A stretch of DNA of 32,000 nucleotides from an archaeon (GTDB taxonomy: Archaea > Asgardarchaeota > Thorarchaeia > Thorarchaeales > Thorarchaeaceae): positions 1-32,000 of the forward strand of contig JAJRZD010000127.1 in assembly GCA_024275415.1 (NCBI GenBank). The letters are read 5' to 3'. Within the stretch, counting starts at the first letter, position 1. Every line of letters begins with the position of its first letter. Position numbers and translations under genes: made by a program. Positions 23,430 through 32,000 of the stretch are shown here, piece by piece. The notes beneath the pieces were generated by a model. The model did no database searches. It had not been told where the DNA came from and was given only the letters and a program-made list of their open reading frames with translations.

Positions 23430-25571
23430 ATGAATGATGTGAAAGACCTGATACCAAAAACTGAGAACCCAGTGATCCTTGACTTGTTCTCAAATGTGCT
23501 TCGGTCAATGGAATTGATACTAGCAGGGAAGTCATCTGACGAAACCGGGCCATTTAACGAGCCAATCGAATTGCTTTCCTACGCACTCGCAAAAAAAGCT
23601 TCATATGATCTTGAAAAATTCACGACAGCGACCTCAACGGACAAGAGGCTTTCCCTCATATTTAGGAACGCTCTTGATGGTGGCTCTGCCGGGAAGATTG
23701 TAGAAAGCTTGATCCTCGGGACTTATGGGTTCGTTCTCGGCTCCTACAATGATGAGGATTTCAGGTATCTCTATCGCTACACTCTGAAGTTGCAAAGGGG
23801 ATCTCGTAAATTTCAGGATTGGATAAAGAGGGCTCTTTGCTTTGTTGTGGCAATCCAGCACTCGTATCCACAGGAGGTTCTTCATCAAATCAGGGAGTGG
23901 ATCAGGTTCCTAGGGGCACCACTCTATCCTCCATCTGATTTCCAAGACCACTGTGCCACATTTGGCATTGACATCGAACCCATACTTTCTGATGACGAAT
24001 ATCGCTCGGTGCTGTCGCTGCGTTCCCGTCCTGAATACCTGGAGGAGGCAATCCTAAACCGTCCCTTCGATGAAGTGTACAGATCCCTGAAATCGTGGAC
24101 GCCTGATGGACTCCTACGCGATGCTTACAAGATTTCTGAGAAGCGGATGTACGAGAAGTTACAAGACCATATCAACGATGATATGAGCATCGCACAAGTA
24201 CTCGAGGTCTCAGAGCAGTTCTTCAGACAGAAAGGGTTCCAGGTCGATGACTCTACCGCGATTCCTGTGAAGCTTCAAAGGCTCTCCCGACCGCCTCCGC
24301 CAGATGTGATGGATCCTGCAATCTTTGAGCGGATACCACAGAAATTACGTGTCAACCTACTTCCTGCCGTCACATATTCCACCTCGATAAAGGAAGTCGA
24401 GATTATCTTTCTCGGCGGGCCTAGAATTGGACGAAGTGGTATCCTAATCAAGACCTCAACTGGAGGTGTTCTCCTTGACTATGGTATGTCAGTAGCTAAT
24501 CAAATGATTCCGGAATGGGTTCCCGAACTTGAAACCATCGATACGATCTTGGTGTCTCACAGCCACTTGGATCACGTTGGCGGTCTGCCAATTATCTATG
24601 ACACCTTTGAAGGCAAGTGGTGTAGCACAGGCATCACTGGGGCAGTCACAATGAAACTTCTTGAAGATGCCCTGAAAATCGGAACTCCCCTCCCTCCGAG
24701 AAAGACAGACACGCTGGATAGGGTGTCACGCTTTACGAAAGACAATGTAGAGGTGGTTTCTCGAAGCCATGTGACCCTCGAAGTCGGCTCATCCAGCGAG
24801 TTGGCTCCAGGGATACTCGTGACTCCGGTTGACGCATGTCACATCCCCGGCAGTGTGGCATATCTCCTAGACATTGAAGGGCTCAAGATACTGTACACCG
24901 GCGACTTCAACCTCGACCAGTCCGTCCTTTTCCCAGGTGCTTCATTCCCCACTGACCCCGATGTGTTGATCTTCGATGGCACCTATTGGAGTAGGGAGGA
25001 CTTTGATAGGGCTAAGGTCTCTCAACAACTGATGAATATTATCGAGAACTATGGTCCGGTCATCATCCCAACCTTTGCAGTGGGACGCTCTCAAGAAATC
25101 CTGACGATACTTGACAAGCTCGGCATCACGAACACCAGAAACGTGATGGTAGCGGGGATGGCAGAGGCAGTGACCAAGATGACAGGCTTCAAAGGAAAAT
25201 GGCATGGACTGAAGAAGAACAAGGTCAATCTGGAAGAGGAGGATGTTCTTGTGGCTGGTGGAGGCATGATGGACGGAGGTTTCGCAAAACACCATTTCGA
25301 GCAGCACCGTGACAATAGTAAGGCAGCGGTCGTCCTCTGTGGATACCTTGCTCCACGAACTGCAGGATGGAATCTTATTCATGGTTATGAACCACATCAA
25401 TGCCATGTGGAATATGCCCGACTAAGCGCTCATTCGTCGGCATCGAGGCTTGGTGACTATATAGGATCCTGTAAAGGAAAGCGGATCATGGTTCATACTC
25501 CAGTTGCTACAACACCGAAGAATCTGACAATCCCACGATTAGAGGAACGGATAAGGCTCAAGGTGCCCTAG
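23430..25571 (+). CDS. Beta-CASP metallo-beta-lactamase nuclease (CPSF/RNase J-like) with a ~320-aa unrecognised N-terminal domain
   Basis: LLDYG, SHSHLDH, CHIPGS, YTGDF, DGTY, GRSQE, SAHS, VHT. Confidence 0.85.
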   Translation: MNDVKDLIPKTENPVILDLFSNVLRSMELILAGKSSDETGPFNEPIELLSYALAKKASYDLEKFTTATSTDKRLSLIFRNALDGGSAGKIVESLILGTYGFVLGSYNDEDFRYLYRYTLKLQRGSRKFQDWIKRALCFVVAIQHSYPQEVLHQIREWIRFLGAPLYPPSDFQDHCATFGIDIEPILSDDEYRSVLSLRSRPEYLEEAILNRPFDEVYRSLKSWTPDGLLRDAYKISEKRMYEKLQDHINDDMSIAQVLEVSEQFFRQKGFQVDDSTAIPVKLQRLSRPPPPDVMDPAIFERIPQKLRVNLLPAVTYSTSIKEVEIIFLGGPRIGRSGILIKTSTGGVLLDYGMSVANQMIPEWVPELETIDTILVSHSHLDHVGGLPIIYDTFEGKWCSTGITGAVTMKLLEDALKIGTPLPPRKTDTLDRVSRFTKDNVEVVSRSHVTLEVGSSSELAPGILVTPVDACHIPGSVAYLLDIEGLKILYTGDFNLDQSVLFPGASFPTDPDVLIFDGTYWSREDFDRAKVSQQLMNIIENYGPVIIPTFAVGRSQEILTILDKLGITNTRNVMVAGMAEAVTKMTGFKGKWHGLKKNKVNLEEEDVLVAGGGMMDGGFAKHHFEQHRDNSKAAVVLCGYLAPRTAGWNLIHGYEPHQCHVEYARLSAHSSASRLGDYIGSCKGKRIMVHTPVATTPKNLTIPRLEERIRLKVP

Positions 25572-27538
25572 GCTACTATTTCAAGTACACCATCCAAGAC
25601 GAGCATTGTAGCAACGAATTTCATGGCTGCAAAGCTTAGCTTCAGCTTCTTCACTATATCCCCCAGTGGAGTTTTTCCATCACAAAGATTCACGAATTTG
25701 ATGACGATTGGGCCGTAAGGTTTCACATGTTTCTCAGGATCTGGCTCTGATATCTTCTTCAGAATGACACTAGTATCCAAATCGACTTGGAAAGTGATCC
25801 AATCAAACTTCTTCATTATCTGGAGACAGCCGAGAACCTTTTCACGGGGGAGGTCAAGAGAACGCACCAATCCTCCCACAGTCAGTGTGCCATCAATAGC
25901 AGTCTTTACTTCAACAAGAGACCGTCCAACGTCCCTATTGGCAAATGGGAGTCCCCGTCCTGCTTCGCGTGCTCGAACCATATAGTCCAAGCTGATAGGA
26001 ACCAGTGGGATTTCACCGAGTACGTTGAAGACGGATGTTTCAAAGACGGTCATATCCCCATTCCAATCAGCCCAAATTTCATGGAACATATCTTCAATCT
26101 CAACTAGAAGGCCAGCCATCTTCTGACGGTATAATTCTTCTTCATTGTCATTTGTCACGATGAGAGCAAGTACGAAATGCTTTGATTTTTCCACCATGAC
26201 AAGATTCCCTTCATGCTCGATGGTTTCCAAGGCATCAGTGGCGTCTGTGGTTCCTTCTGCGGATGGGTCGATTCCACCAAAGGAATCAAGAGCAGAAATC
26301 AGGGATGCTACCGAGTTCACATCAATCATGTTGTCTGAGTAGTCTAGGTGATAGACAACATTGAACATACCATTTTGTTGGATCAGGAGTATCAAGCTTA
26401 TGACTTTGGTTGGCAATTGGATTGGCTCGACTTCAGAAGCTACTGTGCCATCAGAAGAGGACTCGATGGCGGTATCACTGTCGCCTACTTCTGAAGCTAG
26501 CGGGATGCCACTGGGTTCGTGTGAAGAGGGTGCTTCTCGTCCTGTGTCTGACCCGTCCTCCTGATAGGGAACTGTTTCATAACCACTCTGATCATGAGGA
26601 GTCCTAGCAGAATCCATCCCCGCCTTGTCAACATCCTCGGTCTTTCGGCGAACGGTAATCATCTCACTGATTGGTCGATCGGGGAGTTGAACCCCTACGG
26701 TCTTTGCAGCCACTTCCAACATGAAGCGGATGAACTCCTCTCGTCGGGATTTGTTCGTTGCGACCATGGGAAATGTAGGAGCTCCTAGAAGTCGTTTGAT
26801 CTTCTCAGCTCTCATTGATTCAGGGAGATCCTGCTTATTTGCCACAATGAACAAGGGGACTGCCGGAGCCTCTTTCTTGATATTCCTGAGAAGCGTCTTG
26901 GTCTGCATCACATTTCGAAAAGAGCTATCAGTGATGAGGAATATCACATCGGTTCCCTGGAAATAGAAGCTCCAGAGGTCTTGAAAGACTGCCTGTCCTG
27001 CAAAGTCCCAGATTGTAACCAAAAAAGTGCCGAACTGAATTGTTTCAGACGAGTCCACTGCAACATTGATTGTAGGCACATACCCACCGGGAGCTGGCTC
27101 CCTCCCAAAAAGGAGGCGAAGCAGAGTACTCTTCCCGACACCACCACTTCCAACGAAGGAAATCTTGAAACGGGTGAAAATGAGCTCACCAAGGATGTCC
27201 TCAATGTTGTCCTTGATATAGCTCATCGAGTTGCCTCTCAGCGCGGTGGCGACACGTGCAGAGCCTTCACGAATCTTGTATTGAATCACACGATCCTCAT
27301 CCCGTCCATCAGTGACGAATAGAAGAAGCAGGTCATCACTGACTGGAGCGTGAAATACCTTATGAACCTCGCTCACGAAGACAGGTGTGTCAGGGGACAG
27401 ACCTTCTGTGGTATGTAAGTCGTGGTATCCCCGTAGGAATTCTTGGATGTCCTCCTGCCCGAACTCGATCTTCCAGAACCTTGACCTCACCACAATGTCC
27501 CCAGTTTCAGTTTCTATCAGTATGACATTATGGATCAT
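25568..27538 (-). CDS. Multidomain Arf-like small GTPase: longin-like / GTPase / acidic linker / longin-like / tandem winged helix
   Basis: G1 GSGGVGKST, G2 YVPT, G3 WDFAGQ, Arf-like WSFYF, G4 NKQD. The longin and wHTH calls rest on sequence pattern only. Confidence 0.85.
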   Translation of the reverse strand: MIHNVILIETETGDIVVRSRFWKIEFGQEDIQEFLRGYHDLHTTEGLSPDTPVFVSEVHKVFHAPVSDDLLLLFVTDGRDEDRVIQYKIREGSARVATALRGNSMSYIKDNIEDILGELIFTRFKISFVGSGGVGKSTLLRLLFGREPAPGGYVPTINVAVDSSETIQFGTFLVTIWDFAGQAVFQDLWSFYFQGTDVIFLITDSSFRNVMQTKTLLRNIKKEAPAVPLFIVANKQDLPESMRAEKIKRLLGAPTFPMVATNKSRREEFIRFMLEVAAKTVGVQLPDRPISEMITVRRKTEDVDKAGMDSARTPHDQSGYETVPYQEDGSDTGREAPSSHEPSGIPLASEVGDSDTAIESSSDGTVASEVEPIQLPTKVISLILLIQQNGMFNVVYHLDYSDNMIDVNSVASLISALDSFGGIDPSAEGTTDATDALETIEHEGNLVMVEKSKHFVLALIVTNDNEEELYRQKMAGLLVEIEDMFHEIWADWNGDMTVFETSVFNVLGEIPLVPISLDYMVRAREAGRGLPFANRDVGRSLVEVKTAIDGTLTVGGLVRSLDLPREKVLGCLQIMKKFDWITFQVDLDTSVILKKISEPDPEKHVKPYGPIVIKFVNLCDGKTPLGDIVKKLKLSFAAMKFVATMLVLDGVLEIVA

Positions 27539-27655
27539 TCATTGTTCACCTATCTTCTTGGATTCGATTGCGCTCAAAACGTATATTCAACTGTTCTAGT
27601 AAAACTATCCTAATAATCCACAAGATAGACTATGAAGCTTTGGTCGATGTACCTT

Positions 27656-29341
27656 TCACTCCAGGATCACAATTCCTTTTGAATACAGGTCTGAAATCAC
27701 AGAAATAAGCACACTCTGCTGAATTCCAACTTCCTCACTAATCTCCATAACCGTGTGTTTCCCGTCCATCATTGCCGTAATCTTATCTATATGTGAATAG
27801 AGTTTACGAAGGGATTCATTGACCTCGCCCACCAGCCTCGGCGTATCAGAAGGGTCTAGGTTCAGCTTCAGACCGATGCAGCCCATTGCCTTGAGAAAGT
27901 GAATTGCTCCCAATGTCATATTGGGACCACTGCCAGATGATAGACGTTGGATCTCAATCGAGCCGTCAAGACTCCCCCAGACAGCCTGTAGGAAATCCCG
28001 AACCTCCCTCGATTCAAAGCGATTCCAATCGGGCTCGTGTATCCGCACAGGACACATCTTGCCAGGAATCTCTTCTGGCGGGAGTGTTGCAAGGATCTTG
28101 AGCGTGAACGGAGGTGAAGAATATGGATCCTCTGAACTCTCGACGAACTCAGGAGATTCGTCTTTCCAGAGATCCGGAAGGAACGAGAATTGTCGGCGGA
28201 GTGACTCTACATCATCGACGACCCCAGTGACCAGCGTGAAAATCAGGTCATCGACCTCGATAAGGGCATATACCAAATCCTCGACTTGCACTACTGAGGT
28301 CTTGTCAAACTCTGCACTGCCCATCTTAAAAGAGGTCACTGCTGCAACTATGTTGGGAGCTCTACGATGTGCCTCAGCCTTCGGGACGTAATAATACGTG
28401 AACACAGGGTTACCCGTTGATTTTTTCACAACAAAAAAGGCCTGATGTCCCGTAGGTCCTGCTGGGATAATCGCACTTTCATCTGTTGGTTGTGTGTCAA
28501 TTGAGGCGTCCATGGGCCATCGTTCCAATGCCAGATCAGGATGCATATCAGTCAACCCCATTATCGCCAAGACTGATACCAACAGGTAAGAAGCGTCCTT
28601 GGAAACTGAATCACAGAGTTCGATTTGGAGATCCGTTTCATACCTCCTTGCGTGTTCCAGTTCGTCGTCAGAACCAGGAGCAATAAGGATCGGGACTGAA
28701 ATCTTCGACCTGATACCTTCCACAATCCCCTCAATGACTGACCTGTCAGGTAGAGGCCTCCCAAGAACAAGTATAACTCCTGCGGGATTGTCTTCTACAG
28801 CAATATCTGGGTCAGACACAACTGCTGAGAATGTGTACTTGGCAGCCCTGATATTGTAGGGTCCGATGGCAATATGACCGTGAACCTTCATGTGCTTCTC
28901 AATATTGCTTAGAGCACCACCGGTGATGTTCTCAAAGGACGGCTCTTTATCCGAGATGAAGACCAGATAGAGACCTCTCCTCAATAGGTCGCCAGCCGTA
29001 CTAGAAAAGGTCTTTCTGATCTCACGCATTCCATGTTCCTTTGCAAGATGAGTGAGGCGCGAAGCCAGCTCCGCCACCTGACGTTTTTCTTCTTCAGAGA
29101 ACAAAGAAGTACTGGATACGACAACAAGGAGAGCCTTACCAGCGACCAAGTGGAGACAGACTCCTCGACCATCTTCTAGTTCGAAGACATGGCCGTTCTC
29201 AAATGCCAGCTCCTGAAGTAGCCCAAAATACGACTCGATAATAGGTTGTATAGGGAAACTCTCTGTGTCATTATCCACAAACGAGACCGATGCCCATGGC
29301 TTAGCACCTACTAAGTCGTATAGTATCGATCTCTCTATCAA
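27656..29341 (-). CDS. Paralogue of the downstream GTPase gene with a degenerate (pseudo-)GTPase domain
   Basis: Hand alignment with 25568..27538 is colinear at both termini, but the G1, G3 and G4 motifs are absent. TTG start. Confidence 0.75.
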   Translation of the reverse strand: MIERSILYDLVGAKPWASVSFVDNDTESFPIQPIIESYFGLLQELAFENGHVFELEDGRGVCLHLVAGKALLVVVSSTSLFSEEEKRQVAELASRLTHLAKEHGMREIRKTFSSTAGDLLRRGLYLVFISDKEPSFENITGGALSNIEKHMKVHGHIAIGPYNIRAAKYTFSAVVSDPDIAVEDNPAGVILVLGRPLPDRSVIEGIVEGIRSKISVPILIAPGSDDELEHARRYETDLQIELCDSVSKDASYLLVSVLAIMGLTDMHPDLALERWPMDASIDTQPTDESAIIPAGPTGHQAFFVVKKSTGNPVFTYYYVPKAEAHRRAPNIVAAVTSFKMGSAEFDKTSVVQVEDLVYALIEVDDLIFTLVTGVVDDVESLRRQFSFLPDLWKDESPEFVESSEDPYSSPPFTLKILATLPPEEIPGKMCPVRIHEPDWNRFESREVRDFLQAVWGSLDGSIEIQRLSSGSGPNMTLGAIHFLKAMGCIGLKLNLDPSDTPRLVGEVNESLRKLYSHIDKITAMMDGKHTVMEISEEVGIQQSVLISVISDLYSKGIVILE

Positions 29342-29391: not shown

Positions 29392-30639
29392 TCAACTTTC
29401 TCTTACCTGCTTCCGCAGGAATTCTTCAAAAGTGATATGGCCTCGCATAAAGCGCTGGTAGTTGCTCTGAATCCATTGTACGTCGTATGGCATCTCGTGA
29501 CATCCTTCACCCGACGCTATCTCCGGCAGATCCGAGATTGCCTCACCGACCGAGATAGGATCCATCCTGTCGTCGTCTTCCCTTTGCGAAGCCGGATCAT
29601 TCCTTCGACGGTCTTTGATAGCACTGAACATTGGTCGGGGCGGTTCGAGATAGTCACTAGTCCTGCTAGCAATGATGAATATCCGTCTTCTACGCTGAGG
29701 AACACCGTACTCTTCGGCTCCCAACTGGAACCACTGAGGCAAATATCCAATCTCTCTGAGAGAGGATAGAATCCTATCTAAAGCTGCGCCCTTGTTTCGA
29801 ATTCGGAGACCTGTCACGTTCTCAATCAACACAAACTCAGGACACAGAGATTCCACCATCCTGAACATAGAGAGTATGAGATTGTTCCGGGGATCCTCTT
29901 TGTCCCATTTTCCAGCCATCGAAAAACCCTGACAAGGAGGACCTCCAGCAAGAAGTTGCAATGTCCGTCCTCCAAGATGCGACTCAACCTGTGCAATGAA
30001 TTCCTCTATTTCATGGGCTTTGCTGAAGTCCACATCAATAACCGTTGTCCCCTCATGGTTTGCAGTATAGGTCGCTCGCATGTGAGGCTCTTTCTCTCCA
30101 GCAATGATGACCTCATGCCCTGACTCTCGAAGCCCGCATGACAATCCACCGGCTCCTGAGAACACATCGACACATAACCCGGGTTTTACAAGTCCACCTA
30201 TAGCACGTGCAAGCAATGGTGGGACTGCATTGCCAATCTGTTTGTACATGGACGAGTTACTTCCTAGGAACCTGTAGTCGTCAGGAAATGACTGCAACCT
30301 GGCTGCCTCCCTGAACGAGATTAGACGGTCCTGAGCTGGGTGGATGAACGTGCCATTGCCGGGGCGATTGAAGTAAGTATTAATCGTATAGCTCGGAAGA
30401 TCAGGCCGGAGTCGTCCATAATAGGTCGTGCGTCCGCCCGTACTACGAATCCGCATGACGCGAGCTGACCTCTGTGCAACAGACAAGGGGATGTCCTGCC
30501 AGTTCCCTCCGGGACGAATTGAGCGCACCATTTGGACATCAAGCTCACTAAGATTAGCCGAAACATGATTGTAGAGCACTGTAGACTCGTTTCTTGTCTT
30601 CTGCGACTTGTTAGTGAGCATCATCATCAGATACCACAC
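29392..30639 (-). CDS. Circularly permuted DNA (cytosine-5) methyltransferase
   Basis: The order is TRD, motif IX (REAARLQSFPD), X (QIGNAVPP), I (FSGAGG), IV (GPPCQGFS), VI (ENV), VIII (QRRRRIF). The real start may be an ATG at 30621-30627. Confidence 0.92.
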   Translation of the reverse strand: MWYLMMMLTNKSQKTRNESTVLYNHVSANLSELDVQMVRSIRPGGNWQDIPLSVAQRSARVMRIRSTGGRTTYYGRLRPDLPSYTINTYFNRPGNGTFIHPAQDRLISFREAARLQSFPDDYRFLGSNSSMYKQIGNAVPPLLARAIGGLVKPGLCVDVFSGAGGLSCGLRESGHEVIIAGEKEPHMRATYTANHEGTTVIDVDFSKAHEIEEFIAQVESHLGGRTLQLLAGGPPCQGFSMAGKWDKEDPRNNLILSMFRMVESLCPEFVLIENVTGLRIRNKGAALDRILSSLREIGYLPQWFQLGAEEYGVPQRRRRIFIIASRTSDYLEPPRPMFSAIKDRRRNDPASQREDDDRMDPISVGEAISDLPEIASGEGCHEMPYDVQWIQSNYQRFMRGHITFEEFLRKQVRES

Positions 30640-30719
30640 AACATAGTTTCCTGCATGAAAAGATTTCCTCGATTACTTTCAATGTTACTTAGAGAGAGGA
30701 TTCGACTTTTGATAAGGGG

Positions 30720-31187
30720 TCACAATGAACGCCTAAAGCGATTCATGTCGGGAATGTCAAGAAGGGTATAACCACTCCCATCCCAATGTAAGATACGATA
30801 CTCGGTGCTATGCCCGAGCATTGAGCCGATTATGAATGCTGCAGAAACAGGACAGGCAAGCACAACGGCAAGTGAATGACCTCCAACGCTCTTCCCTACC
30901 TTATGGATCAGGACAGCAGCTCCCTCAGACCATTGTGTGATTTCTGACGGTTTAAGCTGTTTCGGGACTCCAATCTCGCCCACGATACAGTATCCTGCAA
31001 GAGTGACATCTCGCTTTGTGTCATGACTGAAATTGACCACGATCGCAGGGGGACGACTGTCCAAGTCTGAATAGTTGAAAGGAACTAAAACCCCCGTTTT
31101 CAACCGTTTGGCAAGTCCACTGAATCTAGTCTTGAATGTATATATGCTATTCATGATAGAAAGAATGATAGTAATAGCATCAGGCAT
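30720..31187 (-). CDS. Stand-alone SAVED-like (CARF-related) small protein A
   Basis: AIVVNFS..D, then LAVVLACPVSAAFIIGSMLG...RILHWD..GY, matching the C-terminal SAVED pattern (hlflaaP.slAf.lG...v.ly.y....Y). Confidence 0.6.
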   Translation of the reverse strand: MPDAITIILSIMNSIYTFKTRFSGLAKRLKTGVLVPFNYSDLDSRPPAIVVNFSHDTKRDVTLAGYCIVGEIGVPKQLKPSEITQWSEGAAVLIHKVGKSVGGHSLAVVLACPVSAAFIIGSMLGHSTEYRILHWDGSGYTLLDIPDMNRFRRSL

Positions 31188-31339
31188 ATCCCACTAAACT
31201 CCTCATGACAGTGAGATATTCCTTCTCATTAATCTTTTTCTGAACAGCTCACATGGGAATGTGAAGGCGGAAAGTGAAAATCTGTGTCCGGTATCTCCAT
31301 AAGGAAGAAAGCTGATTCAGCATTGACGGAGATACACCG

Positions 31340-31804
31340 ATGTCAAATGATCTTGAACAAGAAAAAGAGAAGATAAAGATAGGACATTTGGAAGTAACGG
31401 GTCTCTCATCCCTTGTTACCTCACTTTCCGATGAAAAGGAATCATCAACTCTGTTGGACACCAATGCGGAGGTTGTAATAGGTGTGAGCCTGTCCAGACC
31501 AGTGCTTCAAGATCTCGAAAGAGAAGGATACAGCGTAATTGCTGACATTGGACCTCCTCGTCAGATAGAAATATCAGAAATGACTGGGCTTGCAGAGGAC
31601 GTAGCAATCATAATAGACAAGCTGAGAAGGATGGTAAAATGCAAAAGCATTACCTTGGTGTTATCATGTCCCACTGCTGTTGCCTTCATGATTGGCAGCT
31701 TGCTAGGACATCAGTTCACTTATCGCCTGTTGCATTGGGACAATGGATATGTACGTGTGCCAGACTATGGCATCAAACGTTACAGGAAAGAAATCAAAGG
31801 ATAG
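31340..31804 (+). CDS. Stand-alone SAVED-like small protein B, paralogue of A
   Basis: VVIGVSLSR..LQD, ITLVLSCPTAVAFMIGSLLG...RLLHWDNGY; GGAGA RBS-like element upstream of the ATG. Confidence 0.6.
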   Translation: MSNDLEQEKEKIKIGHLEVTGLSSLVTSLSDEKESSTLLDTNAEVVIGVSLSRPVLQDLEREGYSVIADIGPPRQIEISEMTGLAEDVAIIIDKLRRMVKCKSITLVLSCPTAVAFMIGSLLGHQFTYRLLHWDNGYVRVPDYGIKRYRKEIKG

Positions 31805-31845
31805 TAGTAACGTTCACTTCAGAACGAACAGCCAATAGAACGGGA

Positions 31846-31998
31846 TTACATTAGTTCTTGGATTTCCTTAACCGTGTTCTTGTCATTCTTACGATAAGCC
31901 AAGACCTTCGAAGCCTCGTTCCTATTGAAACCATAGAGGGACAATACCAACGCCTCAATCATGGGATGTGAGTGGTTAGAGGGTTTTCGAATGGCACC
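31846..31998 (-). CDS. 3' end of a gene entering from the right edge, possibly an N6-adenine DNA methyltransferase / type IIG-like protein
   Basis: Open frame GAIRKPSNHSHPMIEALVLSLYGFNRNEASKVLAYRKNDKNTVKEIQELM*. The IEALVLSLYG helix resembles the 'ID.LVY.LYGL' tail of m6A methyltransferases. Confidence 0.45.
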   Translation of the reverse strand, partial: GAIRKPSNHSHPMIEALVLSLYGFNRNEASKVLAYRKNDKNTVKEIQELM

Positions 31999-32000
31999 CA

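What the first reader, a model, noticed from the sequence alone, without database searches (positions are those of the whole stretch)
30720..31804. Divergent pair of effector-less, single-lobe SAVED-like genes
Seen: two head-to-head ~155-aa ORFs separated by 152 bp. By hand they share about 37 identities over ~87 aligned positions, including GY, IG.P.Q, SE.T, VL.CP...AF.IGS.LGH and YR.LHWD..GY. Each has only a ~40-aa unrelated N-terminus and no nuclease, TIR, protease or multi-TM effector, and no CD-NTase or Cas10 is visible in the window. Established: SAVED domains bind cyclic oligonucleotides in CBASS and type III CRISPR, are built from two fused CARF-like lobes, are normally fused to effectors, and some degrade their ligand. 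Inference: each protein is about one lobe, so they may homo- or heterodimerise into a 'split SAVED' acting as a sensor, sponge or ring nuclease. This is a possible new nucleotide-signalling or defence module, or a CARF-to-SAVED intermediate.
Basis: partly seen in the sequence, partly recalled or inferred. Interest (0 to 1): 0.8.

Follow-up and report, generated by a model that had tools for sequence, protein, structure and literature searches.

The report
Split SAVED sensor pair, CRISPR-linked
Two small neighbouring genes in a Thorarchaeota-like (Asgard) archaeal genome each encode one half of a SAVED cyclic-nucleotide-binding domain; the halves are predicted to pair into a whole domain and, in related genomes, sit beside type III CRISPR genes, so they most likely bind or destroy the CRISPR alarm molecule.

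Summary
ORF A (30720-31187, minus strand, 155 aa) and ORF B (31340-31804, plus strand, 154 aa) are head-to-head paralogues: 38% identity over 117 aa, E 2e-28.

Both are real SAVED relatives by Pfam, NCBIfam and the PADLOC 'SAVED4--SAVED' model. By sequence, the closest solved structures are AcrIII-2/Crn5 (E 2e-21) and CalpL. Each AlphaFold model (pLDDT 91 and 86) covers only one lobe of solved SAVED domains (Z 11-13.5).

Several results indicate that A and B work together:
- An A:B heterodimer is predicted through the helix that joins the two lobes in CalpL (ipSAE 0.91; best control 0.00).
- One relative is a natural A-B fusion and another has the genes in tandem.
- In a tree, A and B form separate clades, and each of ten loci carries one of each; the eleventh B-type row has no recovered partner.

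The family is rare. In the phylum scan it was found almost only in one archaeal family, and it is tied to type III CRISPR. It lies 0.7-8 kb from cas genes in five independent loci. Five of six genomes with the pair have Cas10, against 7 of 80 without it.

In this genome the pair is a 1.2-kb insertion between two conserved methyltransferase genes. GGDD-bearing Cas10 genes lie on other contigs, and no CD-NTase was found.

It is most likely a cOA-binding regulator (sponge or ring nuclease). I class it as a new heterodimeric variant of the Csx15/Crn5 kind. The scan has no earlier finding of this on other DNA.

The parts
30720..31187 (-). ORF A (155 aa, P0001). It has an N-terminal hydrophobic/amphipathic helix (aa 4-30) followed by one SAVED-type lobe (aa ~34-155). 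Notable residues: S54-H55 after beta1, the LACP...AF.IG interface helix (aa 110-124), LHWD (133-136) and the C-terminal R150-F-R152.
   Evidence: ORF and translation. SAVED HMM matches. AF2 model: pLDDT 85.6 overall, 50-62 in the blocks covering residues 1-30. Residues 34-145 superpose on Cap5 257-379 (Z 13.5, rmsd 2.0, 111 aa) and on AcrIII-2 103-235 (Z 11.9). A-clade orthologues occur in 9 other loci.
31340..31804 (+). ORF B (154 aa, P0002). It has an N-terminal beta-hairpin and helix (aa 9-30) followed by one SAVED-type lobe (aa ~45-153). Notable residues: S52-R53-P54 after beta1 (R53 is invariant in the B clade), the LSCP...AF.IG interface helix (aa 108-123), LHWD (131-134) and the C-terminal R147-Y-R149.
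   Evidence: ORF and translation. Pfam SAVED 27.6 bits (cut-off 26.2). PADLOC 'SAVED4--SAVED' E 4.6e-11 over positions 3-98 of 104. AF2 model pLDDT 91.1. Residues 13-148 superpose on AcrIII-2 104-235 (Z 11.4, rmsd 2.5, 119 aa) and CalpL 369-496 (Z 9.5). Clade conservation.
31188..31339 (.). 152-bp divergent spacer between A and B, presumably holding both promoters.
   Evidence: Sequence. The divergent arrangement, with a similar spacer, recurs in L016, L018, L022, L023, L040 and L054. No promoter was tested.
30640..31845 (.). A 1206-bp insertion carrying the A/B cassette. It lies between the start of the C5-methyltransferase gene and the stop of the N6-methyltransferase gene.
   Evidence: Congeners G328 and G327 and another genus (G336) keep the same gene order (GTPase, pseudo-GTPase, C5-MTase, N6-MTase). 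In G328 and G327 the tblastn matches to the two MTases lie about 65 and 105 bp apart, leaving no room for the A/B cassette. No terminal repeats were found at the insertion ends.
29392..30639 (-). Circularly permuted C5 cytosine methyltransferase (415 aa). It marks the left boundary of the insertion and is not part of the module.
   Evidence: Pfam DNA_methylase E 3.4e-60. It matches positions 644-1020 of the fused PADLOC model PDLC03237. It is single-copy in 66 of 86 genomes of the family.
31846..32000 (-). 3' end of the Eco57I/TaqI_C-type N6 adenine methyltransferase (729 aa; it runs to contig position 34035). It marks the right boundary of the insertion and is not part of the module.
   Evidence: ORF. 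Pfam Eco57I, N6_Mtase and TaqI_C. It matches positions 221-634 of the same PADLOC model PDLC03237.

Best explanation
A and B are the two halves of a split SAVED domain of the SAVED4 (CalpL / AcrIII-2 / Crn5) lineage. Each folds into one Rossmann-like lobe. The lobes pair through their hydrophobic 'CP...AF.IG.LLG' helices into a pseudo-symmetric heterodimer equivalent to a whole SAVED domain.

The heterodimer is an accessory of type III CRISPR-Cas. It binds the cyclic oligoadenylate (most likely cA4) made by Cas10, probably sandwiched between heterodimers stacked head to tail, as in CalpL, AcrIII-2 and Csx15. Because it has no effector domain, it dampens or ends signalling by sequestering or slowly cleaving the messenger. 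In this genome it would act in trans on cOA from the Cmr locus on contig C83 and/or the Cas10-like locus on C37.

Shown here: homology, the single-lobe fold, the conserved A+B pairing, the natural fusion, the linkage to type III loci, and the insertion. Inferred: heterodimer formation (predicted only), cOA binding, stacking, and the choice between sponge and nuclease.
For: Homology. SAVED HMM matches come from three libraries. The family profile hits AcrIII-2 (9r8s) at E 2.1e-21 and CalpL (7qda) at 1.9e-9, and in each it matches both lobes separately.

Fold. Both models superpose on one SAVED lobe only, at Z 11.4-13.5, against Z 5.8-7.2 for CARF domains.

Pairing. Complex prediction for A:B scored ipSAE 0.91 (three runs: 0.92, 0.91, 0.91), with the best of 3 controls at 0.00. 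The runs agree in at least 95% of contacts and the partner's pLDDT is at least 87. That mark was reached by 58 of 80 solved complexes and 2 of 110 mismatched pairs. My own alignments were used, so those counts hold only roughly, and solved SAVED and Csx15 structures may help the model from memory. The predicted interface is A 110-127 with B 108-124. These are the helices that follow the CP motif, and they align to the helices flanking the pseudo-two-fold axis of CalpL.

Fusion and tandem forms. P0005 (336 aa) is A followed by B in one chain. L056 has the genes in tandem, A then B.

Phylogeny. The A clade has support 92/82 and the B clade 80/88, and together they separate from the outgroup at 100/100. 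Ten of the eleven B-type rows have an A-type partner in the same locus; the eleventh (P0016) is a short contig with no DNA or partner recovered. Partners show matching branching, and the fusion's halves fall in the A and B clades respectively.

Link to type III CRISPR. The pair lies 1.3 kb from RAMP and Cas10 genes in G384, about 8 kb in G319 and in G315, 4.4 kb in L053, and between cas6 and cas1-cas2 next to cmr genes in L056. Cas10 is present in 5 of 6 genomes with the pair and 7 of 80 without it (Fisher p 1.3e-4; related genomes are not independent).

Signal source in this genome. It has a complete Cmr locus and a second Cas10-like gene, both with GGDD.

Division of labour. This follows my alignment-based mapping, which is uncertain by about one residue. 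B carries an invariant Arg53 at the loop position of the catalytic His (SsCalpL H392, AcrIII-2 H128). A carries an invariant Arg152 at about the position of the bottom-face Arg (SsCalpL R361, AcrIII-2 R96) (residue roles from PMC11417357 and PMC12751052). In the fusion, A occupies the lobe-1 position and B the lobe-2 position, matching where these residues sit in CalpL and AcrIII-2.
Against: No biochemical evidence exists. Ligand binding, stacking and catalysis are all inferred.

The catalytic His of CalpL, AcrIII-2 and Csx15 is not conserved. B always has Arg at that position. A has His in only 2 of 10 members (this window's A is one of them) and otherwise Gln, Arg, Val or Gly. Ring-nuclease activity is therefore doubtful for the family as a whole.

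Because A and B are paralogues, homodimers A:A and B:B might score as well as A:B. They were not tested, as only one complex job was allowed.

In this genome, and in G324, the pair is not next to cas genes.

A's conserved hydrophobic N-terminal helix is unexplained by a pure sponge or nuclease role.
Confidence: 0.58

Rival explanations
1. The pair is a cOA-activated effector rather than an off-switch. Ligand-driven stacking of A:B heterodimers would cluster A's N-terminal hydrophobic helices in or on the membrane and disturb it, like a minimal version of SAVED-TM, Cap14 or Cam1-type effectors.
For: Every A-clade protein starts with a hydrophobic stretch of about 18 residues followed by a basic amphipathic segment. 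The Kyte-Doolittle 19-residue mean reaches 1.7-1.9 in 5 of 10 members. In the model it is a long helix (aa 4-30) not confidently packed on the lobe (pLDDT 50-62). A and B match the C-terminal parts of PADLOC SAVED_TM models. Csx15 forms fused to transmembrane helices are reported (bioRxiv 10.64898/2026.10.26.761840).
Against: In this window's A the helix scores only 0.98 on the Kyte-Doolittle scale. Several members have charged residues inside the stretch. A single short helix is a weak membrane effector. The PADLOC matches cover only the SAVED lobe, not a transmembrane part.
Confidence: 0.17
2. A and B do not form a heterodimer. Each forms its own Csx15-like homodimer, giving two separate cOA-binding proteins with different ligand specificities or roles (for example one sponge and one nuclease).
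For: Csx15 proteins are homodimers (PMC13148439). The interface helix is nearly the same in A and B, so homodimers are sterically plausible. The complex test cannot separate hetero- from homodimers for paralogues.
Against: A and B occur strictly one-to-one in all ten loci where both could be seen. Partners have matching phylogenies, and there is a natural A-B fusion and a tandem form. Conservation is complementary: R53 only in B, and W86 and R152 only in A. That pattern is what is expected of an obligate heteromer.
Confidence: 0.15
3. The cassette is an anti-CRISPR of a mobile element, like AcrIII-2. It would have been brought in by the insertion and would serve to disarm the host's type III signalling.
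For: The closest solved relative is the viral AcrIII-2. The cassette is a recent insertion in this genome and is patchily distributed, being absent from six congeners. A related ~143-aa single-lobe family lies in runs of small unknown ORFs that look virus-like.
Against: No mobile-element genes, terminal repeats or integrase flank the insertion. In five loci the pair sits beside or inside cas operons, as cellular ring nucleases do. No relative was found in IMG/VR by the close-relative scan.
Confidence: 0.07
4. The pair belongs to the methyltransferase locus, for example as a regulator of the m6A/m5C methyltransferases, and has nothing to do with cyclic nucleotides.
For: It lies exactly between the two methyltransferase genes, and A is co-directional with the C5 methyltransferase, 80 bp upstream of it.
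Against: Relatives keep the two methyltransferases adjacent without the pair. No other locus carrying the pair shows a methyltransferase next to it.
Confidence: 0.02

Closest known systems
AcrIII-2 / Crn5 (stand-alone SAVED ring nuclease; PDB 9R8S; PMC12751052)
   Same: It is the closest solved relative by sequence (profile E 2.1e-21, both lobes matched) and is among the best by structure (Z 11.4-11.9). It has no effector domain and belongs to the SAVED4 lineage. It is associated with type III systems when encoded by the cell (Crn5). Its conserved Ser in the 'SCP' motif corresponds to S194, and basic residues lie in the helix that ends each lobe.
   Different: AcrIII-2 is one chain with two diverged lobes. 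Here the lobes are two separate gene products that are 38% identical to each other. The catalytic His128 position is Arg in B and variable in A (His in this window's A). Both proteins here have ~40-aa N-terminal extensions that AcrIII-2 lacks.
Csx15 (half-SAVED homodimeric sponge or ring nuclease; PMC13148439; bioRxiv 10.64898/2026.10.26.761840)
   Same: Csx15 is a single SAVED-like lobe of ~130-150 aa that must dimerise. It is effector-less and linked to type III CRISPR, and it often acts in trans. It is proposed to bind cA4 between stacked dimers. Natural lobe-lobe fusions exist in that family.
   Different: Csx15 is a symmetric homodimer encoded by one gene. Here two diverged, co-inherited paralogues occur strictly one-to-one and are predicted to form a heterodimer. 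The catalytic His of Csx15 lies at residues 8-13, whereas here beta1 starts after a 35-45-aa extension. No sequence link to Csx15 could be tested, and the existing curated model files this family under SAVED4. Neither Csx15 paper mentions heterodimers, paralogue pairs or archaea.
CalpL (Lon-SAVED4 protease, type III effector; PDB 7QDA; PMC11417357)
   Same: It is of the same SAVED4 sequence lineage: the profile scores E 1.9e-9 with both lobes matched, and Z is 9.5-10.7. The A:B interface helices correspond to the helices at CalpL's pseudo-two-fold axis. The positions equivalent to S451, H474/H345 and R361 are conserved.
   Different: CalpL carries a Lon protease effector and works with CalpT and CalpS, none of which is present here. 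CalpL's lobes are fused in one chain.
CBASS SAVED effectors (Cap4, Cap5, Cap14, TIR-SAVED)
   Same: The lobe fold is the same; Cap5 gives the best Z for A (13.5).
   Different: The genome has no CD-NTase, the proteins have no effector domain, each chain is a single lobe, and the genomic linkage is to Cas10, not to SMODS.

Membership tests
SAVED domain (Pfam PF18145 / NCBIfam NF033611) | Sequence match to the family HMM at or above the curated cut-off | tested here: inconclusive
   B scores 27.6 bits against the Pfam cut-off of 26.2, which passes. A scores 15.6, which fails. Against NCBIfam NF033611, B scores 29.9 and A 15.6, both below the cut-off of 33. The family profile hits solved SAVED proteins strongly.
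SAVED domain (Pfam PF18145 / NCBIfam NF033611) | Two CARF-like lobes fused in one polypeptide (a pseudo-dimer) | tested here: not met
   Each model is a single lobe that superposes only on the C-terminal lobe of solved SAVED domains. The two-lobe state is reached only in the relative P0005, a natural fusion.
SAVED domain (Pfam PF18145 / NCBIfam NF033611) | Fusion to an effector domain | tested here: not met
   No effector family was found in Pfam, NCBIfam or PADLOC. The proteins are 154-155 aa long.
Stand-alone SAVED4 (PADLOC PDLC02008 'SAVED4--SAVED') | Near full-length match to the 104-position stand-alone model | tested here: met
   B scores E 4.6e-11 over positions 3-98 of 104. A scores E 9.2e-6 over positions 4-101 of 104.
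Csx15 | A single SAVED-like lobe that dimerises, with no effector domain | tested here: met
   Single-lobe models. A dimer is predicted; this is a prediction, not a measurement.
Csx15 | Sequence membership in the Csx15 cluster (PSI-BLAST from CsCsx15, or a Csx15 profile) | not tested
   No Csx15 sequence or model was available through the tools. No Csx15-named family appeared in the Pfam, NCBIfam or PADLOC scans at E up to 1-10, but I could not confirm that those libraries hold a Csx15 model.
Csx15 | A symmetric homodimer encoded by one gene | tested here: inconclusive
   There are two co-inherited paralogues and a natural A-B fusion, and a heterodimer is predicted. Homodimers were not tested.
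Csx15 / SAVED4 ring nucleases | A catalytic His in the loop after beta1, plus a bottom-face Arg in the C-terminal helix | tested here: inconclusive
   The His is present in this window's A (H55) but in only 2 of 10 A-clade members. B has an invariant Arg at that position. The Arg equivalent to R361/R96 is invariant in A (R152) and present in half of B. The mapping is by alignment and uncertain by about one residue.
Type III CRISPR ancillary gene | Recurrent physical linkage to cas10 or RAMP genes, and co-occurrence with them in genomes | tested here: met
   Five independent loci lie within 0.7-8 kb of cas genes. Cas10 is present in 5 of 6 genomes with the pair and 7 of 80 without. The pair is not linked to cas genes in this genome.
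CBASS | A CD-NTase (SMODS) cyclase in the locus or genome | tested here: not met
   PF18144 found no match at E <= 1 in the whole genome, which is 92.9% complete.

The most novel reading that the evidence does not exclude
The A/B pair is an obligate heterodimeric SAVED and a living intermediate of domain evolution. Within one archaeal family the same two paralogues occur as divergent genes, as tandem genes and as a single fused chain. They already show the division of labour seen in fused SAVED4 domains: one lobe keeps the top-face ligand loop and the other keeps the bottom-face Arg. If so, SAVED-type pseudo-dimers arise repeatedly by duplication, then heterodimerisation, then fusion. The asymmetric pocket may also recognise a ligand other than cA4, such as an odd-numbered or mixed-linkage cyclic oligonucleotide.
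Probability: 0.35. Interest if true: 0.72.

Novelty: new variant of a known kind. Interest (0 to 1): 0.56.

Why it matters
Stand-alone cOA binders such as Crn1-5, Csx15, Csx16 and Csx20 set the duration and strength of type III CRISPR signalling. In late 2026 the field proposed that SAVED domains arose when a Csx15-like single lobe duplicated and fused.

This family supplies the missing middle step in natural form. It is a conserved pair of diverged single-lobe paralogues, and tandem and fused versions occur in sister genomes. That makes the evolutionary route and the functional asymmetry of SAVED lobes directly testable, using two small proteins that have no effector domain and whose lobe cores model with high confidence.

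It also adds a cOA-signalling accessory to Asgard (Thorarchaeota-like) archaea, and shows such a cassette moving as a two-gene unit into an unrelated, conserved locus.

Tried and rejected
- The search for related loci on genome contigs with alignments A2 and A4 failed because neither has a conserved enough 7-10-column stretch. I used the genome search instead.
- I tried to build an alignment for the natural fusion P0005 with A-types on the N half and B-types on the C half. MAFFT stacked all rows on the N half, even when the two halves were added as anchor rows. The fusion was therefore not folded, and the second structure job went to A.
- The search for homologous proteins with P0005 found only P0005 itself, so the fusion is a singleton lineage.
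- A-only and B-only profiles both score lobe 2 of AcrIII-2 higher than lobe 1. This gives no lobe-specific orthology. The A/B duplication looks independent of, and younger than, the SAVED4 fusion.
- No terminal direct or inverted repeats mark the insertion, so the mechanism of insertion is unknown.
- The look-up of sequencing runs listed no run, and no RNA holder was listed. The insertion junctions could not be checked against reads, and read laying was not used.
- Scans of viral contigs with P0002 and P0033 found no relative by the close-relative method.
- No Csx15 chain appeared in the fold or PDB-sequence searches. The Csx15 entries 9TEU and 9TET may post-date the library copies, so this says nothing about the relationship.
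- Neighbouring genes of the pair in other loci share no conserved third gene, and most have no Pfam family.
- The Makarova 2020 CARF/SAVED classification paper is not held in the library.
- Reading the pair as part of the R-M locus was rejected because of the empty sites in relatives.
Full report
1. OBSERVATION

A lies at 30720..31187 on the minus strand (155 aa, P0001). B lies at 31340..31804 on the plus strand (154 aa, P0002). They are head to head across a 152-bp spacer. BLASTP of A against B gives 44/117 identities (38%) and 65% positives, E 2e-28. The paralogy is therefore real and not a chance resemblance. The first ~40 residues of each protein do not align with the other.

2. WHAT THE PROTEINS ARE

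Sequence matches:
- Pfam SAVED (PF18145) matches B at 27.6 bits (cut-off 26.2) and A at 15.6 bits.
- NCBIfam's SAVED model, 261 positions long, matches only about half of its length in either protein.
- PADLOC has a 104-position stand-alone model, 'SAVED4--SAVED'. It matches B at E 4.6e-11 and A at E 9.2e-6 over nearly its whole length. Both proteins also match only the C-terminal ends of the CRISPR-Lon, SAVED_LON and SAVED_TM models.
- A profile of the family hits the viral or cellular stand-alone SAVED ring nuclease AcrIII-2/Crn5 (9R8S) at E 2.1e-21, and CalpL (7QDA) at 1.9e-9. In each case there are two separate stretches, one per lobe.

Structure:
- The AlphaFold2 models are confident: B has pLDDT 91.1 and pTM 0.85, and A has pLDDT 85.6.
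- Each model is a single beta-alpha lobe.
- With VIA-align, B residues 13-148 superpose on AcrIII-2 104-235 (Z 11.4, rmsd 2.5 A, 119 aa), Cap5 256-382 (Z about 11) and CalpL 369-496 (Z 9.5).
- A residues 34-145 superpose on Cap5 257-379 (Z 13.5, rmsd 2.0 A, 111 aa) and on AcrIII-2 103-235 (Z 11.9).
- CARF domains such as Csm6 reach only Z 5.8-7.2.

The condition 'a single chain already contains both lobes' is not met.

3. DO THE TWO HALVES WORK TOGETHER?

Four independent lines say yes.

(a) Complex prediction. Complex prediction for A:B gave ipSAE 0.91 (runs 0.92, 0.91, 0.91), against 0.00 for the best of three controls. The runs agree in at least 95% of contacts and the partner's pLDDT is at least 87. 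In the tool's calibration this mark was reached by 58 of 80 solved complexes and 2 of 110 mismatched pairs. My own alignments were used, so the counts hold only roughly, and likeness to solved SAVED or Csx15 structures may help the model. The interface is A 110-127 with B 108-124, the hydrophobic helix that follows the conserved CP motif, plus the C-terminal helices. By the alignment these are the helices that flank the pseudo-two-fold axis inside CalpL's SAVED4 domain.

(b) Natural fusion and tandem forms. An exhaustive HMMER search of 1.84 billion representatives found a small family: 16 representatives at E < 1e-25, almost all 146-164 aa long. One protein of 336 aa (P0005) is an A-type half followed by a B-type half. 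Another locus (L056/L057) has the genes in tandem, A then B.

(c) Strict one-to-one occurrence. In a scan of 400 genomes of the phylum, six genomes carry the family. All six belong to one family and to six different genera. Each has exactly one A and one B. Five are divergent pairs and one is fused.

(d) Phylogeny. In a maximum-likelihood tree the A and B sequences form separate clades (support 92/82 and 80/88). Together they are split at 100/100 from a related ~143-aa outgroup. The fusion's halves fall in the A and B clades respectively, and partners show matching branching: G319 with G324, the two SRR contigs, and G315 with L054.

Caveat: because A and B are paralogues, the complex test cannot exclude homodimers.

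4. WHAT SYSTEM IT BELONGS TO

The association is with type III CRISPR-Cas.

Positions of the pair in other loci:
- G384 (= L023/L024): 1.3 kb from RAMP genes, with an 831-aa Cas10 in the same locus.
- G319 (= L022): about 8 kb from a Cmr locus.
- G315 (= L021, the fused form): about 8 kb from Cas10 and RAMP genes.
- L053: 4.4 kb from Cas10.
- L056/L057: between cas6 and cas1-cas2, next to cmr genes.

By my own arithmetic, a random gene in a 3-Mb genome has roughly a 1% chance of lying that close to a given cas locus.

Within the archaeal family, Cas10 is found in 12 of 86 genomes. It is in 5 of the 6 genomes with the pair and in 7 of the 80 without it (Fisher p 1.3e-4; related genomes are not independent).

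The window's own genome has no SMODS/CD-NTase match; it is 92.9% complete. It does have a complete Cmr locus on contig C83: Cmr2 of 633 aa with GGDD, plus Cmr3, Cmr4, Cmr5 and Cmr6. It also has a 479-aa Cas10-like gene with GGDD next to large RAMP fusions on C37. A source of cyclic oligoadenylate therefore exists in trans.

5. WHY IT SITS HERE

Both flanking genes are on the minus strand. One is an Eco57I/TaqI_C-type N6 methyltransferase (contig positions 31846-34035). The other is a circularly permuted C5 methyltransferase (29392-30639). They match the two halves of one fused PADLOC methyltransferase model.

The C5 methyltransferase is single-copy in 66 of 86 genomes of the family. Two congeners and another genus keep the gene order GTPase, pseudo-GTPase, C5-MTase, N6-MTase, and the congeners continue with the 223-aa gene. 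In the two congeners the tblastn matches to the methyltransferases lie about 65 and 105 bp apart, which leaves no room for the cassette.

The A/B cassette is therefore a 1206-bp insertion peculiar to this genome. It is not part of the methyltransferase locus. No terminal repeats or mobility genes mark the insertion. Record titles of the closest methyltransferase relatives identify the lineage as Thorarchaeota-like Asgard archaea.

6. MECHANISM

Known relatives bind cA4 between units stacked head to tail. They use a composite site: a His in the loop after beta1 on one face, and an Arg/Lys helix on the opposite face. The residues are SsCalpL H392 and R361, and AcrIII-2 H128 and R96. Csx15 uses H13 (or H8) and R125. 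(PMC11417357; PMC12751052; PMC13148439; bioRxiv 10.64898/2026.10.26.761840.)

I mapped these positions through the HMM alignments, with an uncertainty of about one residue:
- The loop is S54-H55 in A and S52-R53 in B.
- The 'SCP' Ser (CalpL S451, AcrIII-2 S194) is S109 in B and A111 in A.
- The LHW His corresponds to CalpL H345 and H474.
- The bottom-face Arg is about R152 in A and R149 in B.

Clade-wise conservation is complementary. R53 is invariant only in B. R152 and W86 are invariant only in A. Position 55 of A is variable, with His in 2 of 10 members, this window's A among them. In the fusion, A takes the lobe-1 position and B the lobe-2 position. This mirrors CalpL and AcrIII-2, where lobe 1 carries the bottom-face Arg and lobe 2 carries the top-face loop residue.

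My reading is that a heterodimer binds cOA and probably stacks. Because Arg replaces the catalytic His family-wide, sequestration or slow cleavage seems more likely than fast ring-nuclease activity, though this window's A could supply a His. All of this paragraph is inference.

A's N-terminal helix (aa 4-30) is hydrophobic and then basic. It is modelled with low confidence. Its Kyte-Doolittle score is 0.98 here and up to 1.9 in orthologues. It is unexplained and is the basis of the effector rival.

7. COMPARISON WITH WHAT IS KNOWN, AND NOVELTY

Stand-alone SAVED (AcrIII-2/Crn5) and single-lobe Csx15 are published. So is the proposal that SAVED arose from a Csx15-like lobe by duplication and fusion, together with reports of Csx15-Csx15 fusions. 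Curated resources already hold a stand-alone SAVED4 model. UniProt/AFDB annotates a family member as a SAVED-domain protein.

What I did not find described is a conserved, co-inherited pair of diverged single-lobe paralogues predicted to form a heterodimer, with divergent, tandem and fused states in sister genomes, in Asgard archaea. The Csx15 preprint contains no mention of heterodimers, paralogues or archaea. Literature searches for heterodimeric SAVED found nothing relevant.

Membership in Csx15 proper could not be tested. The family is closer by sequence to the SAVED4 lobes. I rate it a new variant of a known kind.

8. VERDICT

The system it belongs to is type III CRISPR, not CBASS. Function (binding, stacking, sponge versus nuclease) remains inferred. 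Earlier notes of this scan on the same stretch agree on the insertion between the methyltransferases. Nothing similar was recorded on other DNA.

Noticed in passing
window 29392-30639 (-) and contig C115 31846-34035 (-) (L004:1846-4035): A circularly permuted C5 methyltransferase and an Eco57I/TaqI_C-type N6 methyltransferase each match one half of a single fused PADLOC model (PDLC03237). No endonuclease is visible nearby. The C5 gene is single-copy in 66 of 86 genomes of the family and keeps its gene order, so this looks like a vertically inherited orphan m6A+m5C methyltransferase pair of Thorarchaeota-like archaea.
   Followed up: partly
L058:1254-1688; L059:1356-1787; L060; L061 (proteins P0018, P0021, P0023, P0033, P0038): A related family of ~143-aa single-lobe SAVED-like singletons lies within runs of small, co-directional ORFs with no Pfam match, which looks like virus or mobile-element DNA. 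They could be single-lobe anti-CRISPRs. A tandem fusion of this family also exists (P0019, 290 aa).
   Followed up: partly
G000 contig C37 21862-29622 (L020:6862-14622): A second type III-like locus has a very small Cas10-like protein (479 aa, GGDD intact, no N-terminal HD region seen) followed by unusually large RAMP-containing proteins of 705, 556 and 664 aa.
   Followed up: partly
G000 contig C83 17783-18424 (L019:1783-2424, minus strand): A 213-aa protein with HFX_2341_N and MarR domains lies next to the Cmr locus. It could be a Csa3-like cOA-responsive regulator, and so a possible target pathway for the A/B pair.
   Followed up: no
window 25568-29341 (-): A 656-aa Arf/Roc-type GTPase is followed by a 561-aa paralogue with no Pfam GTPase match. 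The pair keeps the same gene order in the three relatives examined (two congeners and one other genus). Other first-stage readers have already noted it.
   Followed up: no
L056:244-2008 (GCA_027101075.1): In this Cmr locus the Cas10 function appears as two adjacent genes, of 289 aa and 300 aa; the palm2 match is on the second. It may be a split or a minimal Cas10.
   Followed up: no
L021:8952-9923 (= L042:11011-11982): A 323-aa protein with no Pfam match is encoded 78 bp upstream of the fused A-B gene, on the same strand. It may be a partner specific to the fused form.
   Followed up: partly
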